Shown: positions 1 through 26,516, numbered from the stretch's first letter. The stretch is 33,893 bases of DNA from Trichoplax sp. H2 (GCA_003344405.1 NOWV01000182.1:124001-157893), one strand, 5' to 3'. Translations and numbers: made by a program. Notes: generated from the letters alone by a model not told the origin.

Positions 1-2604
1 AATGAGCTTGTACTGTTAGGAGACAGCAAGGACTAGACAATATCGTAAAAAGGAAGTCTTTCCACTGCAATAATCATCGACATGCGGACGGATGGGTTAT
101 CCAACTCCAATTGCATTACTGCCATCGTTAACCCTTAGCGATGGATTCAAGTAATAATGAAGAAGCATGATGAACTTGCACTGTCCTGAGACTGCAAGGA
201 TTGAACAAATATCGTTGCTTTATAGCGATTGAATAGATATCTAGAATGCACATCAGCACATATAGTCTTTAGTCGTTTTGATCAGTTATGCTTTTGGTAT
301 TGTCGTAACATCGCCTGTCCTGTAAACTACTGCTTGTTACCTTGTAGTGTACGCGCCATACAACGTGGGGAATCCTAGATATCGTACAATATTATTTATT
401 TATTTACGGCTTATCTAAACCTTATCTAATGTTACTAGATTAAGATTACATGCTACAAATGTTCACGTGCATTAGGATATGGTATTCAAGTTATGTTGGT
501 ACTAGAGCTGATTGGTTGTCACAGATCTTATGTCTCGTTAACGTGTGTATGATATCGCGCTTGGCATGCGCTTCCAATAAAATAGACTAAAGAAAAGGAA
601 AGCTCAAAGTCTCAGATCTTGATCTCGTTACAGGTATTACTTAAATTATGGATTACGAAAGTACTCAATTTGTTTTCAAATGCATATTGCGTTGAGAAAT
701 GCTGGAATACCGTATTGTTGTGATGTACTTTTTTCAGTATGTAATAACAACACGAAATGGCTAATCTGATCAAGATCGTGCAGTGCCATGAGTTTTCTCA
801 TTTCATCAAGGCCGTGCAGTGAAAAGGGTTATCTTATGAAATGCCTGCAAGTACTTCAGTAAAGATACATAAATCAAATTGCCAATCTTATCTTGATCGA
901 GAAGTTGCAAGAGCTATCTAGCTGGAATCATTTACATTAACCTCAGCTACTATGCTTTCGATAATGTCCTATTGTAAGATCTCTCTTCACTTCACTTATA
1001 TTTGATCAATTTGCTAGAATTAGCAAAACACTATCTTATCTCACAATATTACAATTACTGTACTTTCGATAGTACTTAGGACGTATAACTAGAATATAAC
1101 TTGGCTAGTTAATACTGAAGGAATCTTAAAATTTACGCGGTACTACACCTACCTACGGACAAAAATGACTCATAGCACAATCGAGATAGTTTATGAATCA
1201 CAACATGAATTTTCGTTTGCTAGTCAATGCATGATAGACTAAAGAGATAAAATGAGCTTGCACTGTCAGTAGACAGCCATGACTTTAAAATTGCTAGTCC
1301 TATCAAGGTCGTGCTATTACAGAAGATGGTACATGTAATTAATTTACACTATTGGGTTATAGCAGTGTAAGTAAACATACAAGTCAATGGAAAATAAAAT
1401 CGCAAACTAAAATCATGAATATCGATTTCTGCGAGCAATAGACAACTCAATTGAAATATTTAATAAAGTTTACAGCATACAGCTACTGGAGTAATGTTGT
1501 CAATTCTAATCAACCGAACTCTGTAAAGCTATAGTACTGTATACATGCAAATTCTAGCTCAAATAGACCCTATTCACTACCATATGCTGTTTTTGCAACA
1601 GTTTCGACCAGAGTTAGAAGCCCCTTTTCAACATGATCTCAAAATACAATTTTTGAGATCCCCAAGACTTCATGATAACAGAAGTAAGTCATTTTGATAA
1701 CAATCCATTTTTAAGTATTTTCAGCAATATAGGAAAGAATACTTCAACTATTGCAACATAGTCGAATTTCAACTACTGTATTGCTATGCATGCAATACTG
1801 CAACACAAATTATATATTAGCCACAGTTTGTAAGCCCTGCGCTAGCCAAGACATTCACACATAGTGAATCTAATCAAACCAAATTCAAGCAATCATGATA
1901 GAAAAGCTAGACTATAGCCTTGTATACAACTACATTTTCTAATAGGCATGTAGCTGCTTCGGCCAGTGGGTTCGTAACATACACGCATACCCATCACCTT
2001 AATGGTGTGAAATACAGTAACATATACATGGGCTTACTTTCTAATTCTTCAAAGCCTTAACGCCAAAATAATGATAAGAACTCAGATTCCGTAACTTTAG
2101 GCCAACTGACAGTTTATTGGATAGTATAGCATATCAAAATTATCTGCTTTAGAGGATTCAATATATACAAAAGATATGCAAAAGAGTACTAGGACGTAAA
2201 AAAATATACCATTTTGTTGTCAATTAATAAAATCTTGTCGGCAAGTAGATATATAATTATGCTAAAATAGTGACACCCTATTGCAGGTGTAAATTATGAC
2301 TAACTGTAAATGCCATTGGGCTAGATGTAGAAATTCATCATGCTCATTGCTGCGTACTATATTGTCCTGTCTTGGACAACTAAATGTTAGTAAATCGACG
2401 TAAATAGGCTATTGTTATACTGATGTCTATTTCCGTTTTTACAAGTATAATTCTTATATATCCAGTGGAAATGAAACTAGGATGCTAATAAATACTCCTA
2501 GAATTGAAATGAAAAGTAATGATGAGAATAAGCGTCCGAGTTATACCTACAAAATTGTATTCGATTTAACAAGTGGATGAGCCTCAGAGCGTAACTGTAA
2601 GAAG

Positions 2605-4020
2605 TTAAATATCCTGATCAAGTAACGGCTTGCCTTCTGCATTCTGCGCTACACGGATCTGTCTTGTATCGTTAGCAAGCAATGACTTCACTTTCATGTA
2701 ATAAAAATGAACACTATACAACGTAGTAGGCAAGGCTATTAGTGATGCAAAAATACTCATTATACAAGCAGCAAGGAAAGTAGACGAAGCATCATTGGAT
2801 GATATCTTCAGAAAAAGTTGATAGCCACTCATGATAAGATTGGCTACTATAAAGAAACTTGTCAGTACACATAAAATAGTATAAGTACTATAAGTCATGA
2901 CACACTTTTTACGAAGGATGTTAGCAGCAGTTCTACCACTTGCCATTAAGAGGCAGCCAGTTAAGCCAGTAAATACAACTATAGGATCACCATATAAAAT
3001 AGCAATAGCCAAGACTGCGGCTACAAAGCATATCATTGCGCTTATAAATTGGATGACAGCAAAACAAAATTCTCGACTCTGGATCGCATATTCATATCCC
3101 ATCCATTCTTCGCCATTCCTAACTGAATCAAATTTGTGAAGTCCCAGCCTACTTCCCACTAAAACTTCAACATAAACTGCGAAAAAAAAGCCAACTATGG
3201 AAGCTGCCAGTAAAATAAAGAGGAAAACGTAGATCAGAGAACGATTGGAAATAAATGATGTGGCCCCCTGCGCCATATAAACGATATCACAAATCATCAC
3301 TAGCCAACACGCCATCATAGCAATTCGACTAAAAGCAACAAACCAATTACCAGTATTGGCTGAATTCAGTTTAGCTGTAAATTCTCCCATGATACCCGAT
3401 GTAAATATCATGGAACCAGCAGCAATAGCAACAACAGGATAAACGATGGTGACATTGAATAATCCAACCATACCAATAATGGTGAGCACTATCCCAGCGA
3501 AAATTTGCCAAACCGCTAACGTTTTGTATTGAACATCACAACAACCATATTCATCGGCCCAGCTATATCGAACCCAAATACCTCTTCTGGTATGATTGTG
3601 ATCATTACCATCATCATCCGTGGTTGTTAGGTAATACTTATTGACAGATATGAAAGCAACGATGAGTATTGCACTAGTGCTGATACCGTTGATGATAAAG
3701 AGGATCGTAGGGCCAGAAAGATGAAAGTAGCCATTAGTAATAAATATACTACAGTAGATGATAAAATTGCTCAAGCCTAAATGCAAGCACCAAAATGATA
3801 AGGCAAAGATAGCGGTAGTAACAGTATCATGAGGAGCATTCTTGCGATAAAATAGACAGAAAGCCAAAGACAATACCGCTATTGCAGGTAGTATGGGACC
3901 AGTAAAAGCAAGTGTGCGAATAGTTTGATCAGCTGCTATGGGAAGAACCACAAAAGAGACAACACTTAACAGAAAATTTCCCATTCCAAATAAGAGCAAT
4001 ACCATAATAATCCATTCCAT
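2605..4020 (-). CDS. Intronless ~12-TM membrane protein, 471 aa; three tandem 4-TM modules resembling CD20/MS4A/TMEM176 (paralogue A)
   Basis: ATG at 4020-4018, TAA at 2607-2605, uninterrupted ORF. About 12 hydrophobic segments fall in three blocks (aa ~1-130, ~165-289, ~317-441). Block 2 reads KTLAVWQIFAG...G...YP...AGSMIFTSGIMG...K, resembling the MS4A pattern LG.xQI..G...YP.W.G..FI.SG. Co-linear homology with 6243-7643 supports a real gene. The family call is by eye. Confidence 0.85.
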   Translation of the reverse strand: MEWIIMVLLLFGMGNFLLSVVSFVVLPIAADQTIRTLAFTGPILPAIAVLSLAFCLFYRKNAPHDTVTTAIFALSFWCLHLGLSNFIIYCSIFITNGYFHLSGPTILFIINGISTSAILIVAFISVNKYYLTTTDDDGNDHNHTRRGIWVRYSWADEYGCCDVQYKTLAVWQIFAGIVLTIIGMVGLFNVTIVYPVVAIAAGSMIFTSGIMGEFTAKLNSANTGNWFVAFSRIAMMACWLVMICDIVYMAQGATSFISNRSLIYVFLFILLAASIVGFFFAVYVEVLVGSRLGLHKFDSVRNGEEWMGYEYAIQSREFCFAVIQFISAMICFVAAVLAIAILYGDPIVVFTGLTGCLLMASGRTAANILRKKCVMTYSTYTILCVLTSFFIVANLIMSGYQLFLKISSNDASSTFLAACIMSIFASLIALPTTLYSVHFYYMKVKSLLANDTRQIRVAQNAEGKPLLDQDI

Positions 4021-5026
4021 CTTGTCCAGACGCTTTTACTTTAGTGAACAAGTGCCTTGATAGATGGACTGACCGTCAATACTAATGTAAGAATATTCTC
4101 TCTATAATGATCAATTTCTTGGATTTGTTAAAATGATAATCAACCTTGACTTGCTACTTTATAGAATGGAGATTGGTGGACTGTCATCAACGAAGAGATG
4201 AGCAATTGGAAATGCCATACATAGCACTCAAGCTGAGTGATCAGTCATTGAAGCCCTTAATAGTCGTGTAGAGGCTACTCCACTTCTCGTAATAATGCAC
4301 AGAATAGTAATGGCTTGTTCTACTATCGCTGGAATGGATTTGTTCAATGGATCTTCAACGTTTCGTTGCCCTTTTCTTGATCGAGGTGGCCAGTGTTATG
4401 CTGCAAGTTGATTCTATGAGTAAACATCTGATAGTCACGCGCCTCCTACCTTACTGTAGTTTTCGTAGTCATGTCCAAGATGGTGGCGTTCTGTTATAGC
4501 GTAGAAAGCTTCAAAATAAATGAGAAATGTGGATGGCTAGATAGTCACAGTCAATAAGAATCATAATTTACAGTACTCTACTGTATGATGTCCAATTCTC
4601 CACTCAAAACCAGCTAAAATGGCAGTTTTTAGTCTAAATTGATGTTGAAAATTTTGCTCTCTATGCTTGCACAGAACTGGAGCAAGTTAAAAGCCCTTGA
4701 CAGTCACGAGTGTATCAAACACTATAGTATACACAGTATGACAATCAATTAAGTAAATATAATCTGCTGTCGCTATGGTAATTCTACCGACTGGGTGCAG
4801 CCAAAGGCAACTTGCAATCAAGTTACAAGAGCTTAAAAGCACCGTAAAAGAAGCTAACAATTATTCTGCAGTCCTAATCCAACTTCTACTCGTTCTATTT
4901 CGTGTACTTGTTTGACTAAGAAGGATAATTCTATTTATTGTGCTGTACTGCAATAATTTAGTAGTCTAGATAGCCATGGTAAGAGAGATTTTCTTATACC
5001 TATTGCTAGGCAGTTAAGCTCGAAAC

Positions 5027-5072
5027 CATGGAGTTCTAGATTACTTCCCGGGAAGTAATCTAGAAGTCTATG
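5027..5072. mobile_element. 46-bp hairpin mini-MITE or transposon remnant with a perfect 32-bp palindromic core
   Basis: 5034-5065 TTCTAGATTACTTCCC|GGGAAGTAATCTAGAA is a perfect palindrome. The arms extend as CATGGAG...GTCTATG (5/7 pairing). It is flanked by TCGAAAC (5020-5026) and CCGAAAC (5073-5079), a 6/7 candidate target-site duplication. Confidence 0.55.
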
Positions 5073-6242
5073 CCGAAACTCTACCGTACTTTACTTACGA
5101 AGGTGCAGAGCTTTAAGGCTAAGAATGCATTCAACGCTACAGCAGGTGCAGTACGATAATCAGAAGAAAGAAGCTATCCAAGCAAGGAACTACTGGTTTA
5201 ATAATTAATGCATCTTCTATTAGGATATAGTTATGATTGCAAAGAGTTATGTCGAAAAACATACAGCATACCAGTCATTGCTATAAAATGACTGACTAAT
5301 TTTTCAAAATCGATTAGCAAAATACTGCCGACATGAATTTGGTTTTTAATCAAGATCCAGGATAGAAACTAGCTATATTATCGGTACTCTATATAGAAAA
5401 CAAGTGGTTAACCATTTGCGTGATGATAACTCTAAAATTGCGCTCTCTGTAAACGTCTGAAATAGATCCTGTAGAGCTATGGGGAAGAAAATCAATTTTT
5501 CAACTGTATGTTGATTGTATTTCATATCGAGGCATAGCAGGCGGCATTAACTGTGGGTTTTGTGCTTTCAACACGCGTCTAAAATAGATCCTGTACAATG
5601 CCATCAGCATTGAACAGGAAGGTAGTCCATTTCTTGTCCTATACCGTTGTCATCACAAATTAAATCAGTAGAGTTGCGATGCATGCAAGATACAGGTAAA
5701 AGTGAAAGACTTTCCTTTTCTCGCAATACGCGATCGACTCCAACTCTCTAGTATTTCAAGATTAATGTTGATTCTGTATTAATGAATTATTCATCTTACA
5801 AAACACTGCAAATAACTAGCACTACAATAAGTGTTCGTACATAAGTACAGGCAGAAAAGATTTAACATACAGTAATTGTAAAGTACAAGGATAATATCGT
5901 GCAGTTGGGTTGTTGAAGTAATAAAATACTGTCTTGCAGAATGTGAGTAACAATGATTTAAAAGCTGACGTTGCATCTACAGCATAGCATTGATATTAAT
6001 AAATATATACAAGATGGAAGTAATTTATTATTGAGTGTCAGCAGAATTGATTAAACAAACAATCCTAAGTCAACAAATGCATCAGCAAAAATGCAAGGTG
6101 TGGAATGGTATACCACAAGTTTATCTTTTATACAGTATAGACAGTTATGTTAGAGAACCATCTGCTATATTGGTAAAAATACAATCGTTGGCCCCTTTCT
6201 ATCGTCATTTTCATTGAAAATAGAAAATTAGCTTACTCCTCA

Positions 6243-7643
6243 CTACAGTAAACCCTTCCTAACTTCAGATGCAGCATCTGCTTCTTCCGTTAAGACATCT
6301 TTAGTGACTTCGTTACCGTAGATATAGACGCTGTACAATGTAGCAAAAAGACAGAATAATGACACCCCGATGTTGACTAGATCAATAATCATAAAGGCAG
6401 GCGATTTATGTGGCGATTTATCGATCAATATCCACAAGAGCAACTGATGGATGGATAGAACAAAGTTGGCTGCTAGACAAAAGCTACTCATGCTGCACAG
6501 AACTAAATAACAACTGTGAATTGAAACATTTTTTCTTTTCAATATATTTCCTGCAGTTCTACCGGCAGCAATCAAAAAATAGGATGTTAAGCTAGTAAAA
6601 AGTACAAAAGGTGCAGCATGCAAGAGTATTGCCGTTAGAAAGGTAATCGCGATAAAGATACAACCACAGAGCGTTAATATGAAGCACAAGACAAATTGTT
6701 TGGTTTTCAATGCTTGGCTATAACCCTGCCAAGGTTCACCATTTTTCACCGGATCATACTTATGCATCCCTAATCGACTTCCAATAATTACTTCTACAGA
6801 AACCGATAAGAAAAATCCAGCTATACTTGATATAGCTGTAAATGCAAATATCACCAACGAGGTTGCTGTATTCCACCGAGAATATTCCTTTGCATGAACA
6901 ATAAATATAACGTTACACATAACCGATACCCAACAGCCACATCCTCCAGCACGACTGAAAGTGAGAAACCATATACCAGCATCGGGTAATTGTAACTTAG
7001 ATGTGATGATGCCTAGTATGCCCGCAGTCAATAGACAAGTACCAGCTAGGATAAATAACATGGGGAAAACACTATTTTCGCCAAACAAACCAACGATACT
7101 ACTGACTAATAGCGTAATACTGGCAATGACTTGGCCCTGGCCTACACTACCATAATATTGATTTGAACCTGTACAACAAAATTCATCTGTCCAGTAATAT
7201 CGTACCCAGCCACTGCATCTTTCATAATCATTGCACGCAGACAACGATTTATAATACCTATTGACGCTTAAACAAGATAATCCACTAATACCTAAAGCGG
7301 TAGCAATATTGACAATAAAGAGGATGCATTGCGGAGCAGTATTAAAATAATTGTTGCTAATAAAGATATAACAGTATGTTATAATATTAACGGTCGATAG
7401 GGCTATACTCCATACCGACAACGCCATGATAGAAGCTAAAAGAGTAGCATTCGGCTTTTGATTATAAGTTAGTAAAGCTGTTATTACGGAAAAGATGGAG
7501 ATAGCTGGTAGTACAGGCGTAGTAAATGTCATAGCACTGATCGTCCCATTACTTGGATGAACACCAATAACAAAGAAGGATAAAGAGCCAGAAAGAAAGC
7601 TAATAGCCCCTAAAATTGCTAAGATAACAAATACTTTCTCCAT
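6243..7643 (-). CDS. Intronless ~12-TM membrane protein, 466 aa; triple MS4A-like module (paralogue B)
   Basis: The first ATG is at 7643-7641 (MEKVFVIL, aligning with MEWIIMVL of paralogue A); the ORF track start at 7658 is a TTG. TAG at 6245-6243. Shared motifs with A: WVRY.W.DE..C, VEV..GSRLG.HK.D.V.NGE.W.GY, GRTA.NIL..K.V. Confidence 0.85.
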   Translation of the reverse strand: MEKVFVILAILGAISFLSGSLSFFVIGVHPSNGTISAMTFTTPVLPAISIFSVITALLTYNQKPNATLLASIMALSVWSIALSTVNIITYCYIFISNNYFNTAPQCILFIVNIATALGISGLSCLSVNRYYKSLSACNDYERCSGWVRYYWTDEFCCTGSNQYYGSVGQGQVIASITLLVSSIVGLFGENSVFPMLFILAGTCLLTAGILGIITSKLQLPDAGIWFLTFSRAGGCGCWVSVMCNVIFIVHAKEYSRWNTATSLVIFAFTAISSIAGFFLSVSVEVIIGSRLGMHKYDPVKNGEPWQGYSQALKTKQFVLCFILTLCGCIFIAITFLTAILLHAAPFVLFTSLTSYFLIAAGRTAGNILKRKNVSIHSCYLVLCSMSSFCLAANFVLSIHQLLLWILIDKSPHKSPAFMIIDLVNIGVSLFCLFATLYSVYIYGNEVTKDVLTEEADAASEVRKGLL

Positions 7644-8819
7644 TGACGCGTAGATCAAATTTTAAAGATGGAAAGTGTGATTCACCAACCAGTGGTTAGT
7701 CTACCAGTAACAGTAATCAGTTTAAAGAGAAAGGTGGCTGTGATCCAATACCTACATCGGACTGCTCCTTAGACCAACAGTGCGTGTATGCTATTAATTA
7801 ATGTGATGTAGTCCGTACGTTTTCTATTTGCGTTTTACACTCGTTGTTTGTACCCAGAGGTCCTTGACTATAGCTCGCTCTTGAGTATTGACTATTCAGG
7901 AAATCTGCTCCAGGTTTACCGCTAGCAGCCCAATTGATAATTTGACGTCATGGGCTAAGAATAGCGCGAGATGGCTTTAGTATTGATGACTGGTTGTATA
8001 CAGTTTCCACCATGGATTTAGCAAAGAGAACCTTATTGTACAAGAGCACCCCTATCTACTGCTCCGCTATCGCAAAACTAAATCAATAAGCAGCATCAAT
8101 CATGTCAATCATAACTCGCCGAGAGGTGAGAACTGAAAGTTTTCTACTGTATTTGGGTATTTATCTGTTTTGTCTATAATAAGCCTTATTATTTTAGTGA
8201 TCCAATCCTAATGCTGTATGGAAAATGAATCTTTTTTTTTCTCTTTGTTTACTGTCCCTCTTTCTTAATAGTTAATTGAATTATTCCATAATTTAATGTA
8301 GCGGTCAAAGTGAGATGAGTCACGTAAAAAGAGTGGCGACTGGAAATGATCGTTCCGTATACTAAACATAGAGAAGGCAATTATTTTGCTGGTGATTTGT
8401 ACTGCACTTATGCAAAATGAGTAATTTTGTACAGTATAATGGTGAATGATACTATTAGCTATCCATGATTGAAAATGTACTATAACTAGTCATTGAATCA
8501 TGGTCTTTTCCTGATCGAGATACAAGAAAGGGGACTATGCAATACCATCCATGATTCTAGTTTGAAAGGTGTAGAACTCTTTATTGTAGTGTATACTGCA
8601 GACCTGTGCATGAGCTAACCCAAGATCATGATCGCCTTTTAACTGAAGTTCTACTGAACCGAGATAGTTGTACCGTTGCAATTCAAGTCTTTGATGATAC
8701 AGCAAATTGGCCTGTAAAAAAGGTGGTCTAAGGAAGCCATTTCTGGTACTGTATGTCACTGCATCTGATGGAGGTACAGGAATTTTTCTTTCTACTAGTG
8801 TTGTCCGGCCAAGCATTAT

Positions 8820-9790: not shown

Positions 9791-9830
9791 GAAGGGCGAA
9801 AGTTGACACGTTAAAGGTCAATCAACTAAA

Positions 9831-12800
9831 ATGGCGTCTGGAATCCTCCATTTTATCACTGCCAAATGGCAAGAAATTGCTACCAATTACAGGGATTTAA
9901 TCATTAAAGATCCTGAAATAGCTTCGAGAATAGAAGCTATCCTGCGTATGGTCTCCTATCTTATCCAAGGTTATACACGTAAGATAGATACGGTGTTGAA
10001 AAGATTGCAAACGGGAGCAAAATATCTGCTAATAGTACAGAGTCTACGGGGATATACACTACTAAGCTTGCATGCTAAATACGTTGGGTATCGTCTACAC
10101 CCGATCACAAGAATGCTATCCACTTGGTTTTTTAATTTTAGACTAGTGTGTAAATAGATGTAGGGTAAAACAATTTCACCCTGTGGATTCCCCATTCTAC
10201 AAGATAGGCCATAGTGTAATGCGATTTCTATGGACCCTTACGCTACAAAAGAGCAGCTCTCAACGAGTAGCAGTGACCACCAAGTGGATTCCAAGAAAGA
10301 GTCCACCTCTCTCGTTATTCTATCCTATATAGTCCTACTAGTAAATTGTACAGACAATATCAATGTGGATAACACGATTGAATAGTGTTGCTATTTAATA
10401 CGCTAATGTGAAATGCTCGTGCTAGTATTCAGCATCGCTATGTGCCAGTACTAGTTCACGCAATTTCAGCCCCTTGTGTCTTGGTAGGAATGCTCGTCAT
10501 GACAACCATCACGACTAAAACGATGTGATAGCGTTCATGTATACCATCTGATCTAGCCTAGAATAGCAATCCTATCCTACTAGTATCCTACGAATACTTT
10601 AAGAGATACAATTTGAAGGATAGTATACTGTACAGTACTGTACTATGCATGATTGCTAGATCAAGGGTACAAGTACTTTTGCAGCGAATGGCGACGAGTT
10701 TGCTAAAACCTGTAATACTGTACTTATGTCGTTCCACACTCAATTGTCTAACTATGACTTTCTATCCTGTAGGCAAATTTCCTTTTTCTCAAGAAATATC
10801 AGAATTAGGTAAGTCAGGAAGCTGTAGCGCACTTCAATCCCACATCTCCCTCTGAAACTGTACATATTATAAAGAGATCTATTTGTCTTGTTACTCATCA
10901 TGTATGTTAAACGCATACCTGCTATATCGATTATCCTCTGTAAACTGTATTTTACAGTAATTATTAATTAATTTTCAGGATAAGAATTCATATAATCTTA
11001 GTTCCGTTTTATCCATTTCTTGAATAAATATCTAATCGAATATATGCATTTCATTGGACAACAGTTTATACTGCATCTAATCTGTTGACGTTAACCAACG
11101 ACGAAATCTATAGACATGCCAGGAAATTAGCCAATGTTTCGGTAAGATAAAACAGCAGGAATAGACCTAGAAAATTATGTCGTATGAACATACTGTAATC
11201 GACTAGCATAATATGCTTAGGTCTGATACTATTAGCAGTTCTTTCATTCATCACTCAAAATACCAGTACTAACCACTTCAGGATAACAACTATGACATCC
11301 AACATCAATACTTCCTCATAGAAAAGAATTGCCATCATAGTAACCATGAAGGCATACTGTTGTATAATTAATTATTATTTATATAGCGATACTCCCCTGA
11401 AAGGTACATCATGGAAACCTAGTTGATAATATGAACTAATCTTGTGCTAATTCAGTATTAAAAAGGTGATCGTAATGACCAATAAAATGCTATGCTGTAG
11501 ACTATTGCATAGGTTGCACTATGCGTAGGCTGTTATTACTGTATGTACTAGATGCTATCGTACGCGGACATAACAATTGTGTAAATTCCCTAATCCATCT
11601 TGTAAAACAAGTAGTATTGATTTCAGCTATCAATAGAACAGTATGAGTAGTTACTGCAATGACTCTTATACCATTATTAGCAACTATATTTTCCAATGCA
11701 AACTCTTTTCTTTCGCTATAGTCTGCATCTGTAATAAAGATCAAAAGATGGCTCACAGTAGTTGAATACGTTGAAGTATTTATTGAAGTTGGATCGGCTC
11801 GTCTTCTCGGCGACTTTGGACGCTGGGTGGTAGTATTAATGGTACAAATTTTAAAGTAAGTCATTGTAATACTTATTACCATCCAATATGAAACCGGTAT
11901 ACTGTAGTTTTAATTTGGAAACACTCAACACCAAGTAATATTCACTTTATCAAAAAGAGCCGCAATGAGATTGGTCTTAGTTTTCAAGCACAAAGATGGT
12001 ATCCAATGTCGACCAACGATTGCACCCATGAAAAGAGATTCTAAAACTTTATCCGAGATGAACAACAAACAAAATATGAAAAATGATCCAACTGCCCAGG
12101 AACTGCCAGTATGGAAAGGAGAAAGATCCGGGCGATTCGTTCGATCTCTTTCTGCCGGTAGTCAAGCTTAAACTTTGAAATCGAAGATTGTCACTTACAT
12201 TCAGTTACTTTGAACAATTTATACCGTGTAATTGTTGTAATCTTATATTTTCATGCACCAGATCGTCGTCAATACCCTAACTTAGACCAATATAAGATGT
12301 TTGTCGAACAAGAGCCCACTCCCCTTACGGAAAGGCAAAAGCTAGCGGAACTGTTATATACTGTCCGCCCAGTTCTTCACAGTAAGTATTCATCAATAAA
12401 TCATCGCTACGTTATAACCTAAAGTAGCCTATAGAAGTCACCTCTCAGATGAAAACTCTTATTGTAGTATTAAGCATGTTTACTTTTGGACAAAACTCCT
12501 GGAAACCCTGGCTAATATCCACATTTACGGATCTATCCAGGTATCGTAAAGAGCTTTAGAAAGGTTTCTTACTAATTGTAATAGATCTGCCATCCCGCAT
12601 GAACTAATTTTTACTTTGGAATGAAATTCTTATCTTACAATAATGTCCTAATGTAGTTTAGTGATAGCGGGCGATACTACAAAACGAACTTTTCAAGAAA
12701 GACAAGAAATTTCTCGCCGATATATGGTGTTACTATTATATTTACTGAGATCTCCTTGTTATGACAATTATTCAAGGTAAGTGAGGCAATGACTGTAATA

Positions 12801-14166: not shown

Positions 14167-15486
14167 AACAATCCAAGGAGCAACAATAGGAATATTTTTA
14201 TTTAAATTATAATTGAATGCTACTTAATTATAACAATACAATTTTCTTCAATAATCAGCATTGATGAATGTGTAGTACTGAGCTAATAATAAATGAAGCT
14301 GATAATTAAAAAATGATGCATTGTAATGTAACGTTTGATTCTGATTTTGGGGCCAATAAATACTTAATAGTATGGAAGAGATATATTTCCTATTTATAAA
14401 CTTGTACCTATCGATACCTTCTATAGCGTATTTACTGAAGAACAAATTCAAAATTAATAGGCAATCATTATAGCTATGCGTTGTGGGTATAAAATCGATT
14501 AACTACTAACTTCTACCGTATCTAGCTCTATTTTATGCTTTAAATTGAAATTAATTTCAAGCTCTCCAAAACATAATTCTGTACGTGAATTGTTATCAAT
14601 CGATTTTCTAGTAAGTATTACAGGCCAAAGACAAGTAGAAACTAGCAAGTTACTGTAATGAAAATCGTATCTTAGAGCACAATTAAACTCTGATAACTAC
14701 ATGTCGAAAGATTGAAATTATCTTCGAGCTAATTAAGCCTCATAGCCGTTACTAACAGTATTTGATACTTTACTTTTTTAATTAATAAAGTTTAGCTAAT
14801 CTTTAATCGGTATAAGCCTGATTAACAAATGATCAGACACATAATTTTAATTGTAGCCCTTCTTTCTCCTTAAAGTTTTTTGCAATCCTTTCTCATTTCA
14901 TTCATTCTCTACGTCTAAAAATAATTTCAAATTAAAAAAGGATTAAATGCCCAATTGATCCATGTATTCTATTCTCTTTAATAGTAAACGGCATGCGTTA
15001 TAAAAATTGGCAATAATTTAACATTACCTACCGATATTGTAAAAGAGTAACAACAAGAAGCAATCCAATTAACCCTTACCTAACGTTATAATTATAATTT
15101 TACAATTGCTTCCCATTTTTCAGTGTAGCATTAGCAATACCTCCTACCAATGAATAACAATGGATAAATGATAACATAGTAGCAAAGAGAAAATTGTTTA
15201 ATTAAGCATAGCAAACTGATTTGAAAACACTACTACCAGATGTTACAGCGGTTAAATTCAAAGCATTAATTTCACTCGGGATAATTACAACACGGCTTAG
15301 GTTACAAGAGTAAAATTAGAAAATTTTCTTTAATTGTTAAATGTATTTCCAGAATTAATTTAATCAAGAAACGTTAGATTACAGTCGAGTATTAACAAGT
15401 TCAATCAATGTATAGCCAAATAAGCATATTTAATCGCATCGATCTTTTGCAATAGATATAGATTAAAAGTATCCAACTCATCGACT

Positions 15487-16446
15487 ATGTTTAATAATGC
15501 TACTATTACACACCCGCTAGGAAATCCTGCTATTTTAGTCGTACAGTTTTGCGTTATTACATTGGCATTGGTTAGTAATATCGTTCTGGTAATAATCGTG
15601 GCGTTCTCTAAAAATTTACACGATTTATCTTATAACTTTATTATTAATGTATCTATATCCGATATTATTTCATCAATAACTCAGTATGTATATGCTATTA
15701 CGACAATCTCAACCGTTTCAATGTCTAGACCTGTAGGTGTTGTTGTATGTCCAATAGCATATGGACTTACGGTTACATCGATCAATACCTCTATTGCAAG
15801 TTTAACGATGATAAGTATCTATCGATTTAAAATCGTTACTTGTCCGTTAACATTTCGAGATACAACTATTTTTAAACATTGTACTAAGTTTATTATACTG
15901 TCTTGGCTTATAAGCGTCGTATTCGCTATCCCTGCTTTCCTAATTGGAACTTATAATTCAGTAATGAAAAGCTGCGACTTTGGCTTTCCCTATGGTAACA
16001 TCTTCAACGTTGTCTATTTTTCGATTACCTTGCTATTCGTGTACTTGATTCCAGGAATAATAATGTTAAGGAATTATAGACATATCGCAATCAGTTTGTC
16101 TTCTCAAATATCTGATAATACTACTATATCTCATGACCGCGAAGCTTCTATTAATCGTACACGGAGCGTTATTCGAGTTTTTATTATCGCAACACTGGCA
16201 CAAACATTACTGACATTGCCCTATATTATAACTATCTTGACTTATTCAATACTCAATCAAAGTCAATTTCAACTACTCTTTAACAATACCCAATTTTTTG
16301 TAGTCATCTTGTTATCGTTTACGAGTAATTCCGTATCTTACTTAGTAAATCCATTTATGTTCTTGATTTTCGATAAAAATGTAAAAACGTCTATGTATGA
16401 CTTATGTTTTCGAATTCGTGATAGACGTAGTAATACGAAATCATGA
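15487..16446 (+). CDS. Class A (rhodopsin-like) orphan GPCR, copy 1, intact, 319 aa
   Basis: Seven hydrophobic segments. N-glycosylation sequon NAT, TM1 SN, TM2 NVSISD, TM3 Cys and SIYR (DRY position), TM4 W, ECL2 Cys, TM5 YLIPG..M...Y, TM6 LPY, TM7 NPFMF. Intronless CDS. Confidence 0.92.
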   Translation: MFNNATITHPLGNPAILVVQFCVITLALVSNIVLVIIVAFSKNLHDLSYNFIINVSISDIISSITQYVYAITTISTVSMSRPVGVVVCPIAYGLTVTSINTSIASLTMISIYRFKIVTCPLTFRDTTIFKHCTKFIILSWLISVVFAIPAFLIGTYNSVMKSCDFGFPYGNIFNVVYFSITLLFVYLIPGIIMLRNYRHIAISLSSQISDNTTISHDREASINRTRSVIRVFIIATLAQTLLTLPYIITILTYSILNQSQFQLLFNNTQFFVVILLSFTSNSVSYLVNPFMFLIFDKNVKTSMYDLCFRIRDRRSNTKS

Positions 16447-16519
16447 TTAATTTATCAAAGTAGCTGCACCAGATACGGTGTCATTTTTCACTAGCCGCTT
16501 AGTCTTAGATAGCTTGCAT

Positions 16520-16990
16520 ACTATCTATAGTGTTAATTGCTATCTAACAGTTATTCTGACATCGATCAAGCTAATACTATAGTAACTTTGATATAGATTA
16601 TTGATAGAGAACGTGTTCGCTATTTAACAGGTTAATTGTTATCCCATCCTTATTCTAACGCGGATCAAATTTCTGCTATGATAACTTCGATACGAAATCA
16701 AGTTAGAGTACTTGTTCACTATTTGTGAGGCTAATAGTCATTTAATCCTTATTCCGAAGTTAGCTGGATCAAATGATTACTAATAACTTTAATAGAAGAT
16801 AATGATAGAGCTCTTACTCTCTATTAACAAGATTAATGGCTATCTAGCTACTATTCTCAAATAGACCAAATTACTACTATAATAAGGTGATACAAATATT
16901 GTTGGAGAACTTGCTTACTCTTTATGCTGCTAATTATTATCTAATCGCTATTTTAAGATGGATCAAAATTACTATCATGGTAACTTTGTG
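16520..16990. repeat. Degenerate ~100-bp minisatellite 3' of the GPCR (about 4.7 units), repeated behind every copy
   Basis: Units start at about 16522, 16621, 16720, 16822 and 16920, sharing TTAAT.G.TATC...TTATTCT...GGATCAAATT.CT.CTAT..TAACTT.GATA...AGAG.ACTTG.TC.C. Homologous arrays lie at about 20056-20315, 23150-23620, 26586-26870, and 31240-31365 plus 31585-31870. Confidence 0.8.
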
Positions 16991-17151
16991 ATGCTGTAGA
17001 ACTATATTGACGATATAATCTTTTAATGAGATTACCTTCTTCTACAGTTATCCTGATTCTATCATGTACTTAATCTGGTAGAAATCGAAGCCTGTAGGGC
17101 GACGACAGTACTTGAACTTGTTCGCTTATTATTTCGAGTATACGTGTACAC

Positions 17152-17459
17152 TCGAAACGAATGACATGCAACAAATAAAAAATGCTCATATACCCCTCAT
17201 CTGGCGAACTTGAATCAGAAAAAATTAAAGCATGCTGTTAAGCAATACGCAATATTCAATGGCTATCACGAAGACTCGTTAATTATAGTCTCATAAAGGT
17301 AAATTGCATTCGAAATAAATGGCATGCAACAAATGGAAAATACTCATATACCACTCGTCTGGCAAACTTGGACCGGAAAAATTAAAGCATGCTCTTAATC
17401 AATATTCAAAGGCTATCACCAAGACTCGTTAAATTATTACACTCTTATAATGGTAAATT
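17152..17459 (+). repeat. Local ~158-bp tandem duplication within the unit 2 upstream region
   Basis: CGAAA..AATG.CATGCAACAAAT...CTGGC.AACTTG...AAAATTAAAGCATGCT...AAGACTCGTTAA...GGTAAATT occurs at 17153 and again at 17311, but once in the other units. Confidence 0.85.
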
Positions 17460-19074
17460 AAAATGATTTTAGCCGTTGGCACTTGGCTGAATTATGCCAA
17501 AGAAACAGCCAATAATAATTATGCTACTTTTAATCGCCTTCTATTGAGTAAAAGTTATCGCCGATGAACATTAGTCAATCTTATTCTATGCTGTATCCAC
17601 TTTACCTTGTACGATAACTTTGCAGACTTTTCAAGACTAAGGACTTAATACTATTGTTGTAAGGCTTAATGCAAATATCTATAATGTCTCAAGGAATCTA
17701 GATTGTCTTGACTAACAGAGACCAATCTAAAAGTTCATCTAACTCTTTATTTCTTTATAATACACCAAATGAAGTAGCAATCTTTTATTTTTTATTTAAT
17801 TTTGATTGAATATTGCATAAATATAATGCTGTAAGTTTTCTTCAATAATTAAAATTGATCAAAGTGTACTACGGAGCTAATAAAATGAAGCTAGTAATTA
17901 AAAATGGTGCACTAAAATGTAATTTTTAATTCTAATTTTGGTGCCATTAAATACTCAATAATATAGCAAAGATGATTTCCTATCCATAAACTGGTACCTG
18001 TTAATACATTCTACAGCATATTTTACAGAAGACATTCAAAATTAATAGGTAATCATGACAGCTATGCGTTGGGCGTATAAAATTACTGGCTAACTTTCTA
18101 TCGCATTTAGCTTTATGCTTCAAATTGAAATCCTAATTAGTTCCAATGAATGGTTATCAATCGATTTTCTAGCAAGTATCAAGGCCATAGATAAGTAGAA
18201 GCTATCAAATTACTGTAATGAAAATCATATCCTAGAATATAATTAAACTCTGGCAACTACATACCTAAAGATTAAAATCATCTTTGGGCTAATTAAGTCT
18301 CATAACCGTTACTAATAGTATTTGATACTTCATTTTATTAATAAGTAAGGTTTAGCTCCATAGTCAAACATTAGTCGGTATAAGCCCGATTAACAAATAA
18401 TCAGACTTAAAACTTCAATAATGGCCGTTCTTTCTCCGTAAAATTTTTATTTTAATCCTTTCTCATTCTATTCATTCTCTACTTTCAAAATAATTTGAAA
18501 CTAAAATAGGACTAACTGCCCAATCGGTCTATACTTATATCCTATTTACTTTATAGATAGAGCACATGCATTATTATAAAAATTGACAATCATTTAATGT
18601 TACCTACTAACTACTAACTACTAACAATGTATAAGAGTAATGACAATAAGCAATTCAATCAACTCTTCTTTAACGTTATAATGATAATTTTACAATTGCT
18701 TTCCACTTTTTACAGGTATCATTAGCAATTCCTATCATCAGTGGAGAACAATAGATAAATGATTACATAGTAGTTAGGGAAAATTGCTCAATTAATAAGT
18801 AAAATAAATTGGTATGAAAACACTACTGCCAGATGTTACAGCTATTAAATTTAAAGCATTAATTCACTCGGGATAATTACAACACGGCTTAGGCTGCAAG
18901 AGTAGAATTAGGAGAATTCTCTTTAATCGCTGTACGTATTTCCAAACTCAATTCAAGAAACGTTAGATTACAGTCGAGTATTGACACTTCAATCATTCTA
19001 CGGCCAAATAAGCATATTTAATCGCATCGATCTTTTGCAATAAATGTAGATTAAAAACATCCAACTCGTCAACT

Positions 19075-19986
19075 ATGCTTAATAATACTACTTTTAGGCT
19101 GCCGCTAGAAAATTCTGCTTTTTTAGTCGTCCAGTTTTGCTTTACTACATTGACAATGGTTAGTAATATCGCTCTAGTAGTAATTATGTTGTTCTCTAAA
19201 AATTTACACGATTTATCTTATAACTTTATTATTAATGTATCGATATCTGATATTATTTCAACGATCGTAATGTATACATATACTGTTACAGCAGTCTCAA
19301 CCGTTTCAATGTCTAGACCTGTTGGTGTTGTTGTATGTCGATTAGCATATGGACTTACGGCTACATCGGCTAATACCTCTATTGCAAGTTTAACTATGAT
19401 AAGTATCTGCATTAAAGACAAGCTAAAATTAATAAATTCAGTAAATGTCTTGTTAATTGTATTCGCTACGCCTGCTTTCCTAATAGGAGCTTTTAATTCA
19501 GTGACGAAAAACTGCGACCTTGGCTTCCCTTATGGTAACATCTTCAACGTTGTCTATTTTTCTATTACCTTACTATTCGTATACTTGATTCCAGGAACAA
19601 TAATGTTAAGGAATTATAGGCGTATCGCAATCAGTTTATCTTCTCAAATATCTGATAGCACTGCTATATCTCATAACCGTGAAGCTTCTATTAATCGTAC
19701 AAAAGGCGTTATTCGAGTTTTTATTGTTGCAACACTCGCACAAATACTACTGACATTGCCCTATGTTATATCTGTCTTGGCTTATTCAATACTCAATCAA
19801 AGCCAAATTCAGCTAATCTTTAATAATCCCCGATTTTTCGTTGTCATTTTGTTATCGTTTGCGATCAATATCGCATCCTACTTGGTAAATCCATTTGTAT
19901 TCTTATTTTTCGATAAAAATATTGGAATTGCAGCACATGACTTGTATCTTCGAATTCGCGATAGTTGTAGTATTACGAAATCATGA
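19075..19986 (+). CDS. Class A GPCR copy 2, 303 aa, with an in-frame replacement removing the TM3 YR motif, ICL2 and half of TM4 (possible pseudogene)
   Basis: Co-linear with copy 1 except that 98 nt (15821-15918 in copy 1) are replaced by 50 unrelated nt (19409-19458), a net loss of 48 nt (16 aa). Confidence 0.8.
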   Translation: MLNNTTFRLPLENSAFLVVQFCFTTLTMVSNIALVVIMLFSKNLHDLSYNFIINVSISDIISTIVMYTYTVTAVSTVSMSRPVGVVVCRLAYGLTATSANTSIASLTMISICIKDKLKLINSVNVLLIVFATPAFLIGAFNSVTKNCDLGFPYGNIFNVVYFSITLLFVYLIPGTIMLRNYRRIAISLSSQISDSTAISHNREASINRTKGVIRVFIVATLAQILLTLPYVISVLAYSILNQSQIQLIFNNPRFFVVILLSFAINIASYLVNPFVFLFFDKNIGIAAHDLYLRIRDSCSITKS

Positions 19987-22111
19987 ACAATTTATCAGAG
20001 TGGACGTATCAAATGTCATTTTTTAACTAGCTACTTAGTCTTAGATAGCTTGCATACTATTTACAGTGTTAATTGCTATCTAACTCTTATTCTGAAATGA
20101 ATCAAATCACTGCTACAGTAACTTCGATGTAGGTTAATGATTGAGAATCTGTTCACTATTTAACGACTTAATTGTTATCCCATCTTTATTCTAAAGTGGA
20201 CCAAATTTCTACTATAACAACTTCGATACGAAATCAAATTGGAGTACTTGCTCACTATTTGTGGGTTAATAGTTATTCAATTCTTATTCGGAAGTTAGAT
20301 GGATCAAATTACTAGTTCTCGAGTAAATACTTAAATATATGAGATACAACAAATGGAAAATACTCTGTTCCTTGGCGAACTTGAACTGGAAAAAATTAAA
20401 GCATGCTCCTAACTAATATGCAACAGTTTATTACTATCATTAAGACTCGTTAAATTATTACAGCCCTATAAAAGTAAATTAAAATAATTTAACAATGACA
20501 ATTAGCTGAATTATGTCGAAGTAATAGGCAATGATTACGCTATTTTTAATCGTCCTCCATCAAGTAAAAATTGTTATCGATGAACTGTAGTCAATTTTAT
20601 TTTATACAAGCTGTATATTCCTTACCTTGTACGATAACTTTACAGACTTATTAAGGTTAAGAATTTAATACCATTATCATACAATTTCATACTAATATCT
20701 ATAAGATCTTAATGAATCTAGATTGCCTTTACTAGTAATAGAGACCGATCTAAAAGCTCATTCAACTCTTTATTTCTGTATAGTACACCAAATAGAGCAA
20801 TATAAATAATCTTTTTATTTATTTGTAATTGTATACTCAATAAATATAAAAATCCAAGTTTTCTTTTCTTCAATAATCAGCATTGATTAAGGTGTCTGCT
20901 GAGCTAATAATTGATGAAGCTGGTAATTAAAACTGGGACATTGGAATTTAATGTTTTGATTCTATTTTTTAGGCCAATAAATACTCAATAGTACGGCAAA
21001 GATATGTTTCCTTTTCGTAAACTCTTACCGGTCAATACATTCCATAATATATTTTACAGAAGACATTCAAGATTACAAGGCAATCATTATAGCCATGAGT
21101 TGGGGGTACAAATTAGTGGCCAACTCTCTACCGTATTTAAGACTATTCTGTGATTTAAATTAAAATCCTAATTAATTTCAAGCTATCCAAGGCATGATGT
21201 TGCACATGAATGGCTATCAATCGATTTTCTAGCAAGAATCGTAGGCCAAGGACAAGTAGGAATTATTAATTTAAAGTAATGAAAACCATGTCTTAAAATA
21301 TAATTAAACTCTAATTACTAAACATCCAAAGATTGAAATCACCTACGGGCTAATCATATCTTATAGCCGATACTGACAGTATTTGATACTTCATTTTACT
21401 AATTAATAAGGTTAAGCTCCATAGCTAAACTTCAGTCAATATAGGTCCGATTAACAAATAATCAGGTTTAAAACTTCAATATTTTTCATACTTTTTCCTT
21501 GAGGTTATATTTTCTCATTCTGTTCATTCTCTATATTTAAAAATTATTTGAAGCTAAAGTGGAATTAACTTATCATCGGTCTATACATACAATTTACTTT
21601 AAATGTAGATGGCGGACGTTATAGAAATTGATAATCATTTAACATTACCTACTAACATTGTACAAGAGTGCAGTATTGACAATAAGCAATTAAATTAACC
21701 CTTATTTAACGTTATAATGATAATATTACAATTGCTTTCTACTTTTTTGTGTAGCTTTAGCAATACTTTCTACCAATGAATAACAATAGATAAATGATTG
21801 CATAGTAGTCAAGGGAAAATTGCTCAACTATGTGTAATAAATTGTTGTGAAAACACTACTACCAGATGTTTCAGCAGACAAATTTAAAGCATCAATTCAC
21901 TTGGAATAATTACAACACGGCTTGGGTTACAAGAATAAATTAAGAGAATTCCCTTTAATTATTGAACGTATTTCCAAACCTTATTCAATCAAGAAACGTT
22001 AGATTGCAACCAAGTATTAACAGATTCAATTATTCTATTGCCAAAGAAGCATATTTAATCGTATTGATCTTTTGCAATAGATGTAAATTAAAAACATCCA
22101 ACTCATCAACT

Positions 22112-23071
22112 ATGCTTAATAATACTACTATTACACTGCCGCTAGAAAATTCTGATTTTTTAATCGTTCAGTTTTCTCTTACTACATTGACATTGGTTAG
22201 CAATATCGCTCTGGTAATAATCGTGGCGTTCTCTAAAAATATAAATGATTTATCTTATAACTTTGTTATGAATGTGTCTATATCCGATATTATTTCATCT
22301 ATCATACAGTATACATATGCCGTTACTGCAATATCAACCGTTTCAATGTCTAGACCTGTAGGTGTTGTTGTATGTCGAATAGCATATGGAGTTACTGCTA
22401 CATCGATCAATGCCTCTATTACAAGTTTAACTATGATAAGTATCTATCGATTAAAAATCGTCAGTTGTCCTTTGACATTTCGAAACACAATTATTTTTAA
22501 ACATTGTACTAAGTTTATTATACTCTCTTGGCTTATAAGTGTCGTATTCGCTATCCCTGCTTTCCTAATAGGAACTTATAATTCAGTCACAAAAAGCTGC
22601 GACTTTGGCTTCCCTTATGGTAACATCTTTAACGCTATCTATTTTTCGATTATCTTACTATTCGTGTACTTGATTCCAGGAATAATAATGTTAAGGAATT
22701 ATAAACGTATCGCAATCAGTTTATCTTCTCAAATATCTGATAACACTGCTATATCTCATAACCGTGAATCTTCCATTAATCGGATAAGAAACGTTATTCG
22801 AGTTTTCATTATCGCGACACTGGCACAAACATTACTGACATTGCCCTATATTTTATCTGTCTTGACTTATTCAATACTCAATCAGAATCAATTTCAGCTA
22901 CTATTTGATAATTCTTAATTTTTAGCAATCATTTGGTTATCGTTTTCAACAAATCTCATTTCCTACTTAGTAAATCCATTTATGTTTTTGGTTTTCGATA
23001 AAAATATTAGAATTGCGGCGTGTGATTTATGTCTTCGAATTCGTGATAATTGTAGTGATACGAAATCATAA
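22112..23071 (+). pseudogene. Class A GPCR copy 3 with a premature stop at codon 269 (6-TM truncation)
   Basis: Homologous ATG at 22112. TAA at 22916-22918 where copies 1 and 5 have CAA. The frame continues FLAIIWLSFSTNLISYLVNPFMF...TKS to TAA at 23069-23071, 960 nt in total, the same as intact copies. Confidence 0.85.
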
Positions 23072-25555: not shown

Positions 25556-26516
25556 ATGTTTAATAATACTACTATTACGCTGCCGCAAGAAAATTTTCCT
25601 TTCTTAGTCGTCCAGTTTTGCTTTACTACATTGACATTGGTTAGCAATACCGTTCTAGTGGTGATCGTGGCGTTCTCTAAAAATTTACACGATTTATCTT
25701 ATAACTTTATTATTAATATATCCATATCCGATATTATTTCAACGATCGGAATGTATACATATGCTGTTACAGCAATGCCAACCGTTTCAATGTCTAGACC
25801 TGTAGGTGCAGTTTTATGTCGATTAGTATATGGACTTTTGATTGTATCGACTAATACCTCTATTACAAGTTTAACTATGATAAGTATCTATCGATTAAAA
25901 ATCGTCACTTGTCCATTAACATTTCGAAACATGGTCATTTTTAAACATTGTACTAAATTTATTGTACTATCTTGGCTTATGGGCATCGTATTCGCTATCC
26001 CTCCTTTCCTAATAGGAGCTTATAATCCAGCGACAAAAACCTGCGACATTAGTTTCCCTTATGGTAAAGTCTTCAACATTGTCTATTTTTCGACTAACTT
26101 ACTATTTATCTACTTGATTCCAGGAATAATAATGTTAAGGAATTATAGACGTATCACAATCAGCTTATCTTCTCAAATACGTAATAACACTGCTATAGCT
26201 CATGACCGTGAAGCATGTATTAATCGCACAAGAAGCGTTATTCGCGTTTTTATCATCACGACACTGGCACAGACTTTACTGACATTGCCATATACTATAT
26301 CTGTCTTGATTTATTCAATACTCAATCAAAATCATTTCCAGCTACTATTTGATAATCTCCAGTTTTTTTGTAATTTTCTTGCTATTATTTGCGATCAATA
26401 TCTTATCCTACTTAGTAAACCCATTTATATTCTTAGTTTTCGATAAAAATGTTAAAATTGCAGCGCATAATTTATATCTTCGAATTAGTGATCGTTGTAG
26501 TAGTGTAAAATCGTGA
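25556..26516 (+). pseudogene. Class A GPCR copy 4 with a +1 frameshift in a T homopolymer before TM7
   Basis: T7 at 26363-26369 versus T6 in copy 1. Removing one T restores ...YLVNPFIFLVFDKNVK...VKS-TGA at 26514-26516 (961 nt). Could be a sequencing error. Confidence 0.75.

What the first reader, a model, noticed from the sequence alone, without database searches (positions are those of the whole stretch)
2605..7643. Tandem pair of ~12-TM proteins apparently built from three fused MS4A/CD20-like tetraspan modules
Seen: both paralogues have three blocks of four hydrophobic helices separated by polar linkers, with a period of about 152-157 aa. In A, the helix-1 polar residues are N15/Q172/Q324 and the helix-2 SG motifs are at 208-209 and 361-362. 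Established: CD20/MS4A, TMEM176 and sarcospan-type proteins normally carry one 4-TM domain and oligomerise; TMEM176B is described as a cation channel, and mouse MS4As act as non-GPCR chemosensors. Inference: this is a covalently linked pseudo-trimer of that fold, an architecture I do not recognise from characterised proteins. It may be a single-chain channel or chemosensor in an early-branching animal. This is the best candidate for an undescribed system in the window.
Basis: partly seen in the sequence, partly recalled or inferred. Interest (0 to 1): 0.8.

Follow-up and report, generated by a model that had tools for sequence, protein, structure and literature searches.

The report
Placozoan triple-tetraspan membrane protein pair
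Two neighbouring Trichoplax genes encode an uncharacterised 12-helix membrane protein that looks like three four-helix bundles in one chain; two bundles resemble the CD20/MS4A/sarcospan fold, but no sequence test ties them to that family and the function is unknown.

Summary
The architecture is real. Two intact, intronless minus-strand genes (A 2608-4020, 471 aa; B 6246-7643, 466 aa; 36% identical) each encode 12 long helices. Two long, conserved linkers split them 4+4+4. The claimed three-fold repeat is not detectable in sequence: none of 12 cross-module Smith-Waterman pairs is significant, and profile-profile probabilities are 1% or less. No module hits Pfam CD20 (0 of 8 queries) or any PDB sequence.

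The family is tiny and placozoan: two paralogues, plus one more distant relative of each (one search also lists a Trichoplax adhaerens protein one residue from B), among billions of proteins. Fused tetraspan modules have precedents, namely tandem MS4A genes and the 4+4 repeat of MLC1. Function is inferred only.

The parts
2608..4020 (-). Gene A coding sequence, 471 aa (P0001), single exon; stop codon at 2605-2607
   Evidence: The same 471-aa protein is in public protein collections. One colinear contig from an RNA library spans 2300-4517.
6246..7643 (-). Gene B coding sequence, 466 aa (P0002), single exon; paralogue of A; stop codon at 6243-6245
   Evidence: It differs by one residue from a named Trichoplax adhaerens uncharacterised protein.
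3640..4020 (-). A module 1: TM1-TM4 (residues 1-127)
3526..3639 (-). A linker 1 (residues 128-165), predicted cytoplasmic: an acidic, variable first part, then the conserved W-V-R-Y-x-W-x-D-E motif and juxtamembrane cysteines
   Evidence: Alignment A1 invariant columns W149 V150 R151 Y152 W154 D156 E157 C160. pLDDT is below 50 over 131-166. K+R bias.
3157..3525 (-). A module 2: TM5-TM8 (residues 166-288), a four-helix bundle of CD20/sarcospan-like fold
3079..3156 (-). A linker 2 (residues 289-314), predicted cytoplasmic and the best-conserved segment (G-S-R-L-G-x-H-K-x-D ... N-G-E-x-W-x-G-Y)
   Evidence: 15 of 26 positions are invariant in 4 sequences, against 65 of 286 in TM helices. Alignment.
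2707..3078 (-). A module 3: TM9-TM12 (residues 315-438), a four-helix bundle whose best PDB match is the FcεRI β chain (MS4A2)
2608..2706 (-). A C-terminal tail (residues 439-471), predicted cytoplasmic and poorly conserved
   Evidence: 4 of 33 positions invariant and 5 K+R. pLDDT is below 50 over 453-471.

Best explanation
A and B are real tandem paralogous genes without introns. They encode a 12-helix membrane protein family found so far only in placozoans.

Each chain is three antiparallel four-helix (tetraspan) bundles: TM1-4, TM5-8 and TM9-12. The N terminus, both long linkers and the C terminus are predicted to lie in the cytoplasm. At least bundles 2 and 3 have the CD20/MS4A/sarcospan type of tetraspan fold. 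I read them as very diverged relatives of that superfamily, to which the 4+4 protein MLC1 may also belong. On this reading the protein is a single-chain counterpart of the oligomers those tetraspans normally form.

The outside loops are 12 residues or less, so an ectodomain-based receptor is unlikely. Conservation sits in the two cytoplasmic linkers and in buried polar residues (N85, N111, Q172, R232, E285, N394, Q401).

Most likely mechanism, by inference: an intramembrane organiser or auxiliary subunit, or a small ion pathway, whose conserved cytoplasmic linkers hold the three bundles in register and dock or gate partners.

Shown here: the gene structure, 12 helices in a 4+4+4 layout, restriction to a tiny family, and the ranking of fold matches. 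Inferred: homology to CD20-like proteins, topology, and any function.
For: Genes and paralogy. The 12 helices and the 4+4+4 split by the two longest loops.

Modularity: in the full-length model, residues 1-135 and 310-445 each align on their own to four-helix bundles. Module 2 folds alone at pLDDT 81.5.

Fold of module 2:
- Foldseek, a different method, ranks four MS4A2 and two sarcospan chains as its top 6, with TMq 0.65-0.83 and E 0.018-0.11. CD20 is at ranks 8 and 18.
- The second look agrees: 6 of the top 8 rows are sarcospan, MS4A2 or CD20.
- Identity in those structural alignments is 12-18% for the 6 CD20-family rows, against 7-17% for 14 other membrane tetraspan rows. One-sided Mann-Whitney p is 0.004, using my own post hoc grouping by entry title.

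Language-model neighbours (leads only): CD20 cluster 0.86 and MLC1 0.84 for the whole protein. For module 2 the top three are CD20 clusters at 0.82 and MLC1 scores 0.81, and 7 of the ten best share a family or clan.

Topology: K+R on the predicted inside against outside is 18/131 vs 3/54, 20/136 vs 4/54, 16/122 vs 3/55 and 18/126 vs 1/58 in the four proteins.

Conservation: linker 2 has 15 of 26 positions invariant.

Constraint: of 14 listed strain differences in the two coding sequences, 8 are synonymous and 6 are not. This is a partial list, since 21 more differences were not shown.

Presence in RNA libraries: contigs from three RNA-seq runs of one study cover A colinearly over 2300-4517 and cover B in pieces, with no joints.

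Precedents for fused modules: PMC2826416 and PMC9144339.
Against: - No sequence method links any module to CD20. Pfam gave 0 of 8 queries with a CD20 hit at E up to 10. PDB sequence searches with the protein and with two profiles gave 0 hits at E up to 10.
- The three modules show no significant similarity to one another, so a common origin of the three is not shown.
- Module 1 gave no CD20-family match and could not be folded alone.
- The alignments behind the models hold only 4 and 2 sequences, and the whole model has mean pLDDT 61.
- The language-model scores are below 0.9. The tool says shuffled proteins reach 0.8 or more a third of the time.
- The longer TM3-TM4 outside loop of CD20 (recalled, not from a call) has no counterpart here: those loops are 9, 10 and 12 aa.
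- PMC2826416 concluded that invertebrates lack MS4A-like genes and that short TM similarities are unreliable (passages).
Confidence: 0.5

Rival explanations
1. This is an orphan placozoan 12-helix protein whose four-helix bundles only look like CD20/sarcospan by convergence. An up-down four-helix membrane bundle with short loops is a simple, recurrent arrangement. On this reading the protein is not related to MS4A/CD20/MLC1, and the three blocks need not share an origin.
For: - There is no sequence signal to CD20 or between modules.
- Uroplakin, ROP, copper-storage and designed bundles score within 0-4 Z units of the CD20-family rows.
- The family has only four clusters in about 15 billion proteins.
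- Module 1's best matches are a designed channel and LRRC8A.
Against: - Two different structure aligners and a language-model search independently put CD20-family entries first for module 2.
- Module 3 independently picks MS4A2 as its best match.
- Identity in the structural alignments is higher for CD20-family rows than for other tetraspans.
Confidence: 0.35
2. This is a chemosensor of the MS4A kind. Ligands would be detected by the outside face or the bundle interior, and the gene pair belongs to a chemoreceptor-rich neighbourhood.
For: - The genes lie about 8 kb from five tandem intronless rhodopsin-family receptor ORFs.
- The paralogues are fast-diverging (36% identity).
- MS4A proteins, including CD20, are reported as olfactory receptors (PMC11026480, search listing and abstract start only).
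Against: - The outside loops total only 54 residues, none longer than 12, and are the least conserved class, with 9 of 54 positions invariant.
- Conservation peaks in the cytoplasmic linkers instead.
- There is no expression or ligand data.
- Proximity to receptor genes is not evidence of a shared function.
Confidence: 0.1
3. This is a diverged member of a known 12-helix fold: an MFS/APC-type transporter or a relative of heme-copper oxidase subunit I.
For: - Foldseek's best whole-model rows are cytochrome ba3 oxidase subunit I, at E 0.004-0.04 and TMq 0.31-0.39.
- Oxidase and NO-reductase chains align over 230-295 residues.
- Recalled, not from a call: that subunit has 12 helices in a three-fold pseudo-symmetric arrangement.
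Against: - TMq is 0.39 or less with rmsd 10-16 Å.
- There is no Pfam hit to any transporter or oxidase family.
- The layout is 4+4+4, not 6+6 or 5+5.
Confidence: 0.04

Closest known systems
FcεRI β chain (MS4A2) and CD20 (MS4A1), Pfam CD20-like family PF04103
   Different: There is no HMMER hit to PF04103. Here three bundles sit in one 470-aa chain rather than one bundle per chain. There is no longer TM3-TM4 outside loop. There are no long cytoplasmic tails. The conserved parts are the inter-bundle linkers, which have no counterpart in a one-bundle tetraspan. The source is a placozoan, not a vertebrate.
Sarcospan (tetraspan subunit of the dystrophin-glycoprotein complex)
   Different: Sarcospan is a single bundle that acts as a scaffold in a multi-protein complex. 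No sequence-level match was found, and no partner proteins are known here.
MLC1 (eight-helix astrocyte membrane protein, modelled as a 4+4 structural repeat; homotrimer)
   Same: It has several four-helix units covalently linked in one chain (PMC9144339, passages). MLC1 clusters are the second-nearest language-model neighbours, at 0.81-0.84. One Atlas cluster carries both MLC1 and CD20 Pfam labels.
   Different: MLC1 has two units, not three. No MLC1 structure or profile was available to compare, because no MLC1 row appeared in any structure search and the MLC1 Pfam model (PF27925) never appeared in the Pfam output. Whether that model is in the local copy is unknown. The relationship is untested.
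Long tandem MS4A genes of chicken, opossum and platypus
   Same: They are predicted polypeptides with 2 or 6 MS4A units in tandem, which shows that fusion of these tetraspans into one chain does occur (PMC2826416, abstract and passages).
   Different: Their units are recognisably MS4A by PSI-BLAST and similar to one another. Here the three units have no detectable similarity to MS4A or to each other, which would imply a far older fusion or an independent origin.
Tetraspanins (e.g. uroplakin Ia, PRPH2/ROM1, CD81)
   Different: The large second outside loop of tetraspanins is absent, since the loops here are 12 aa or less. There is no Pfam hit. Foldseek ranks CD81, CD53 and CD9 at 26-35, below the CD20-family rows.

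Membership tests
CD20-like / MS4A family (Pfam PF04103) | Match to the family profile at or above Pfam's gathering score | tested here: not met
   hmmscan at E up to 10 on A, B, P0003, P0004 and six separate modules of A and B gave no PF04103 row in any of them.
CD20-like / MS4A family (Pfam PF04103) | Four transmembrane helices per unit with N and C ends on the cytoplasmic side | tested here: met
   The helices are arranged 4+4+4. The K+R bias places the N terminus, the linkers and the C terminus inside in all 4 sequences. The topology is predicted, not measured.
CD20-like / MS4A family (Pfam PF04103) | Fold similarity to solved members (CD20, FcεRI β, sarcospan) | tested here: inconclusive
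CD20-like / MS4A family (Pfam PF04103) | Longer outside loop between helices 3 and 4 (disulfide-bonded in CD20); feature recalled, not from a call | tested here: not met
   The TM3-4, TM7-8 and TM11-12 loops are 9, 10 and 12 aa in A.
   Q172 is present in 4 of 4, Q324 in 3 of 4 and N15 in 1 of 4. S208 is present in 3 of 4, G209 in 4 of 4, S361 in 2 of 4 and G362 in 3 of 4. No family alignment was available to check the register.
MLC1 family (Pfam PF27925) | Match to the family profile; 4+4 helix repeat | not testable with these tools
   The only evidence is language-model neighbours at 0.81-0.84. No PF27925 row appeared in any Pfam output, and whether the model is in the local copy is unknown. 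No MLC1 chain appeared in any structure search.
Tetraspanin (Pfam PF00335) | Large cysteine-rich second outside loop; profile match | tested here: not met
   No outside loop exceeds 12 aa, and there is no Pfam row.
MFS / APC-type 12-helix transporters | Profile match | tested here: not met
   No transporter family appears at E up to 10.
MFS / APC-type 12-helix transporters | 6+6 or 5+5 fold | tested here: inconclusive

The most novel reading that the evidence does not exclude
The protein is a true, very old offshoot of the CD20/MS4A-MLC1 superfamily in which three tetraspan units were fused into a single-chain pseudo-trimer. The three bundles would surround a shared polar pathway, lined by residues such as Q172, R232, E285, N394 and Q401, and the two conserved cytoplasmic linkers would gate it. 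That would give a self-contained channel or sensor in an animal without neurons. It would also show that CD20-like tetraspans predate bilaterians, contrary to the conclusion of PMC2826416 that invertebrates lack them.
Probability: 0.2. Interest if true: 0.7.

Novelty: new variant of a known kind. Interest (0 to 1): 0.42.

Why it matters
If the CD20-like reading holds, this would be a natural single-chain version of an oligomeric tetraspan. Such a form is useful for asking how MS4A/CD20-type bundles pack, and whether they can form an ion path. That question is still disputed for CD20, MS4A and TMEM176B.

It would also push the superfamily back to an early-branching animal. Placozoans are a model for cell signalling without neurons, and a conserved, lineage-restricted pair of membrane proteins is a concrete candidate for knock-down or heterologous expression.

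If the resemblance is only convergent, the pair remains a small, uncharacterised placozoan orphan family of modest interest.

Tried and rejected
- Whole-genome search: no genome is held for this window.
- Relatives. Exhaustive phmmer over 1.84 billion representatives found only A and B. Word-seeded searches found one further relative each: P0003 (68% identical to A by BLASTP; 69.6-70% in the alignment) and P0004 (62% to B). A search for shorter, single-module relatives of residues 160-296 scored 33 candidates, none at E up to 10. A metagenome scan with two conserved-linker patterns gave 149 pattern matches, none confirmed by tblastn. tblastn found no third copy in the window.
- Sequence links to known families. 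Pfam gave only sub-threshold chance rows: DUF412, DUF3273, YrhK, SPC12 and similar. PDB sequence searches gave nothing. I could not obtain CD20-family sequences through any tool, so no profile-profile test against CD20 was possible.
- Internal repeat: Smith-Waterman with shuffles and hhalign in global and local modes were all negative.
- Known 12-helix folds: rejected as weak.
- The Atlas 'by structure' rows (DUF5690, CorA, TMEM116 and others) were all under the tool's bar.
- N-glycosylation sequons as a topology test: they fall on both predicted faces and in loops too short to be modified, so they say nothing.
- RNA cover. The three RNA-library runs, all from one study, show no contig over about 4544-5291 between the genes, while run X1 covers the whole stretch. 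Being contigs of one study, this is at most a weak hint that the cover over the genes is RNA rather than carried-over DNA.
- Earlier scan notes: nothing on this genome or sequence. A word search returned only unrelated prokaryotic tetraspan-repeat findings.
- Literature. No paper holds the identifiers listed for the Trichoplax adhaerens protein one residue from B. 'Trichoplax' plus 'MS4A' gave one unrelated paper, seen as a listing only. 'MLC1' plus 'cryo-EM' plus 'CD20' plus 'transmembrane' gave none.
- Not done: no complex prediction was run, since I make no binding claim. No supplementary files were opened. The single-cell atlases of Trichoplax, whose tables could show the expressing cell type, were not consulted.


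Full report
**What is there.** The interval holds two uninterrupted minus-strand reading frames. A is 2608-4020 (471 aa, P0001) and B is 6246-7643 (466 aa, P0002). They lie head to tail, 2.2 kb apart. They are 36% identical over 458 residues, E 8e-94. No third copy exists in the window.

The translation of A is already present letter for letter in public protein sets. A protein that differs from B by one residue is named there as an uncharacterised Trichoplax adhaerens protein. The source is therefore a placozoan.

Contigs from three RNA-seq libraries of one study lie colinearly on A (one contig spans 2300-4517) and on B in pieces, with no joints. This fits intronless genes. Contigs cannot prove transcription.

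Of the 14 strain differences listed inside the two coding sequences, 8 are synonymous and 6 are not. This comes from a partial list and suggests moderate purifying selection.

**The architecture.**
- Hydropathy gives about 12 hydrophobic segments in both proteins.
- The AlphaFold2 model of A was built on 4 sequences, with mean pLDDT 61 and pTM 0.71. It has 12 long helices and two disordered linkers.
- The two longest loops are 38 and 26 aa and sit exactly after helices 4 and 8. The other nine loops are 12 aa or less.
- In the full-length model, residues 1-135 and 310-445 each superpose on their own onto four-helix bundles. Residues 160-294 folded alone give a confident four-helix bundle, with pLDDT 81.5.
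- Lysine plus arginine is strongly enriched on one face in all four known sequences, for example 18 of 131 against 3 of 54 in A. This places the N terminus, both linkers and the C terminus in the cytoplasm.
- Conservation is highest in linker 2, with 15 of 26 positions invariant, and in the second half of linker 1. It is lowest in the outside loops, with 9 of 54 invariant.

**The repeat.** The layout is not matched by any sequence repeat.
- Twelve cross-module Smith-Waterman comparisons give z from -1.18 to 2.69 against 300 shuffles each. The three same-module A/B comparisons give z 27-41.
- Profile-profile comparison of the modules gives probabilities of 1% or less.

**Relatives.** The family is tiny.
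- An exhaustive HMMER pass over 1.84 billion representatives returns only A and B.
- Word-seeded searches add one more distant relative of each, at 68% and 62% identity.
- No shorter single-module relatives were found.
- No relatives were found in metagenome contigs.
- No paper mentions the identifiers listed for the Trichoplax adhaerens protein one residue from B.

**What fold.** Sequence methods give nothing. There is no Pfam family for the proteins or for six separately scanned modules. There is no PDB sequence match.

Structure gives a consistent but modest signal.
- Module 2, Foldseek: four MS4A2 and two sarcospan chains are ranks 1-6, with TMq 0.65-0.83, but E is only 0.018-0.11.
- Language-model neighbours: CD20 and MLC1 clusters at 0.81-0.86, which count as leads only.
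- Identity in the structural alignments is higher for CD20-family rows (12-18%) than for other tetraspans (7-17%). This is a post hoc test with p 0.004.

**Other folds.** Nothing supports a known 12-helix fold.
- The best whole-model Foldseek rows are cytochrome ba3 oxidase subunit I, at TMq 0.39 or less.

**Comparison with what is known.** Fusion of tetraspan units is not unprecedented. Predicted genes with 2 or 6 tandem MS4A units exist in chicken, opossum and platypus (PMC2826416, passages). MLC1 is modelled as a 4+4 repeat (PMC9144339, passages).

What differs here is that there are three units, that they have diverged beyond recognition, and that they are tied by conserved cytoplasmic linkers in a placozoan. 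The same 2010 paper concluded that invertebrates lack MS4A-like genes and warned about short transmembrane similarities. That caution applies to this finding.

Because the Pfam profile test was run and failed, I do not file these proteins as CD20-family members. I describe them as CD20/sarcospan-like in fold and possibly remotely related.

**Mechanism (inferred).** With almost no ectodomain and the strongest conservation in the cytoplasmic linkers and in buried polar residues, the most likely role is one of two. It could be an intramembrane organiser or auxiliary subunit, or it could be a small ion pathway built from three linked bundles. In both cases the linkers would position or gate the bundles. 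A ligand-binding chemosensor seems less likely. None of this was testable here.

**Verdict.** This is a real, uncharacterised, lineage-restricted membrane protein pair whose modular tetraspan build is clear. Its kinship to CD20 is plausible but unproven.

Noticed in passing
window 15424-31168 (+): Five tandem intronless ORFs of the rhodopsin-type 7TM receptor family (Pfam 7tm_1, E 7e-15 to 2e-26). They lie at 15424-16446, 19012-19986, 21959-22918, 25493-26446 and 30185-31168. The second matches the profile in two stretches and the third and fourth stop short of the profile's end, so some copies may be damaged.
   Followed up: partly
window 5417 and 7811: Two loose ends of RNA-library contigs, from different runs and at different places, share a 10-letter word that does not occur in the window. 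At 5417 the genome just upstream resembles the loose letters, so that one may be a strain difference. At 7811 the genome has AG at 7810-7811. This could be a spliced leader, a repeat or chance.
   Followed up: partly
window 9807-10154 (+): An open frame with a weak, sub-threshold match to the start of the peroxisomal membrane protein Pex16 profile (E 2.4e-4, 21 bits against a cut-off of 25). It is probably an exon of a multi-exon gene.
   Followed up: no
window 4033: All three RNA-library runs carry one extra T behind 4033, which is 13 bases upstream of the start codon of A. Run X1 does not carry it. It lies outside the coding sequence and is most likely a strain difference.
   Followed up: no
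window 5417-5909: In one RNA-library run (X12), low-depth contigs (3-5) lie in the space between the two genes. This could be an extended 3' end of B, an upstream start of A, or a separate transcript.
   Followed up: no
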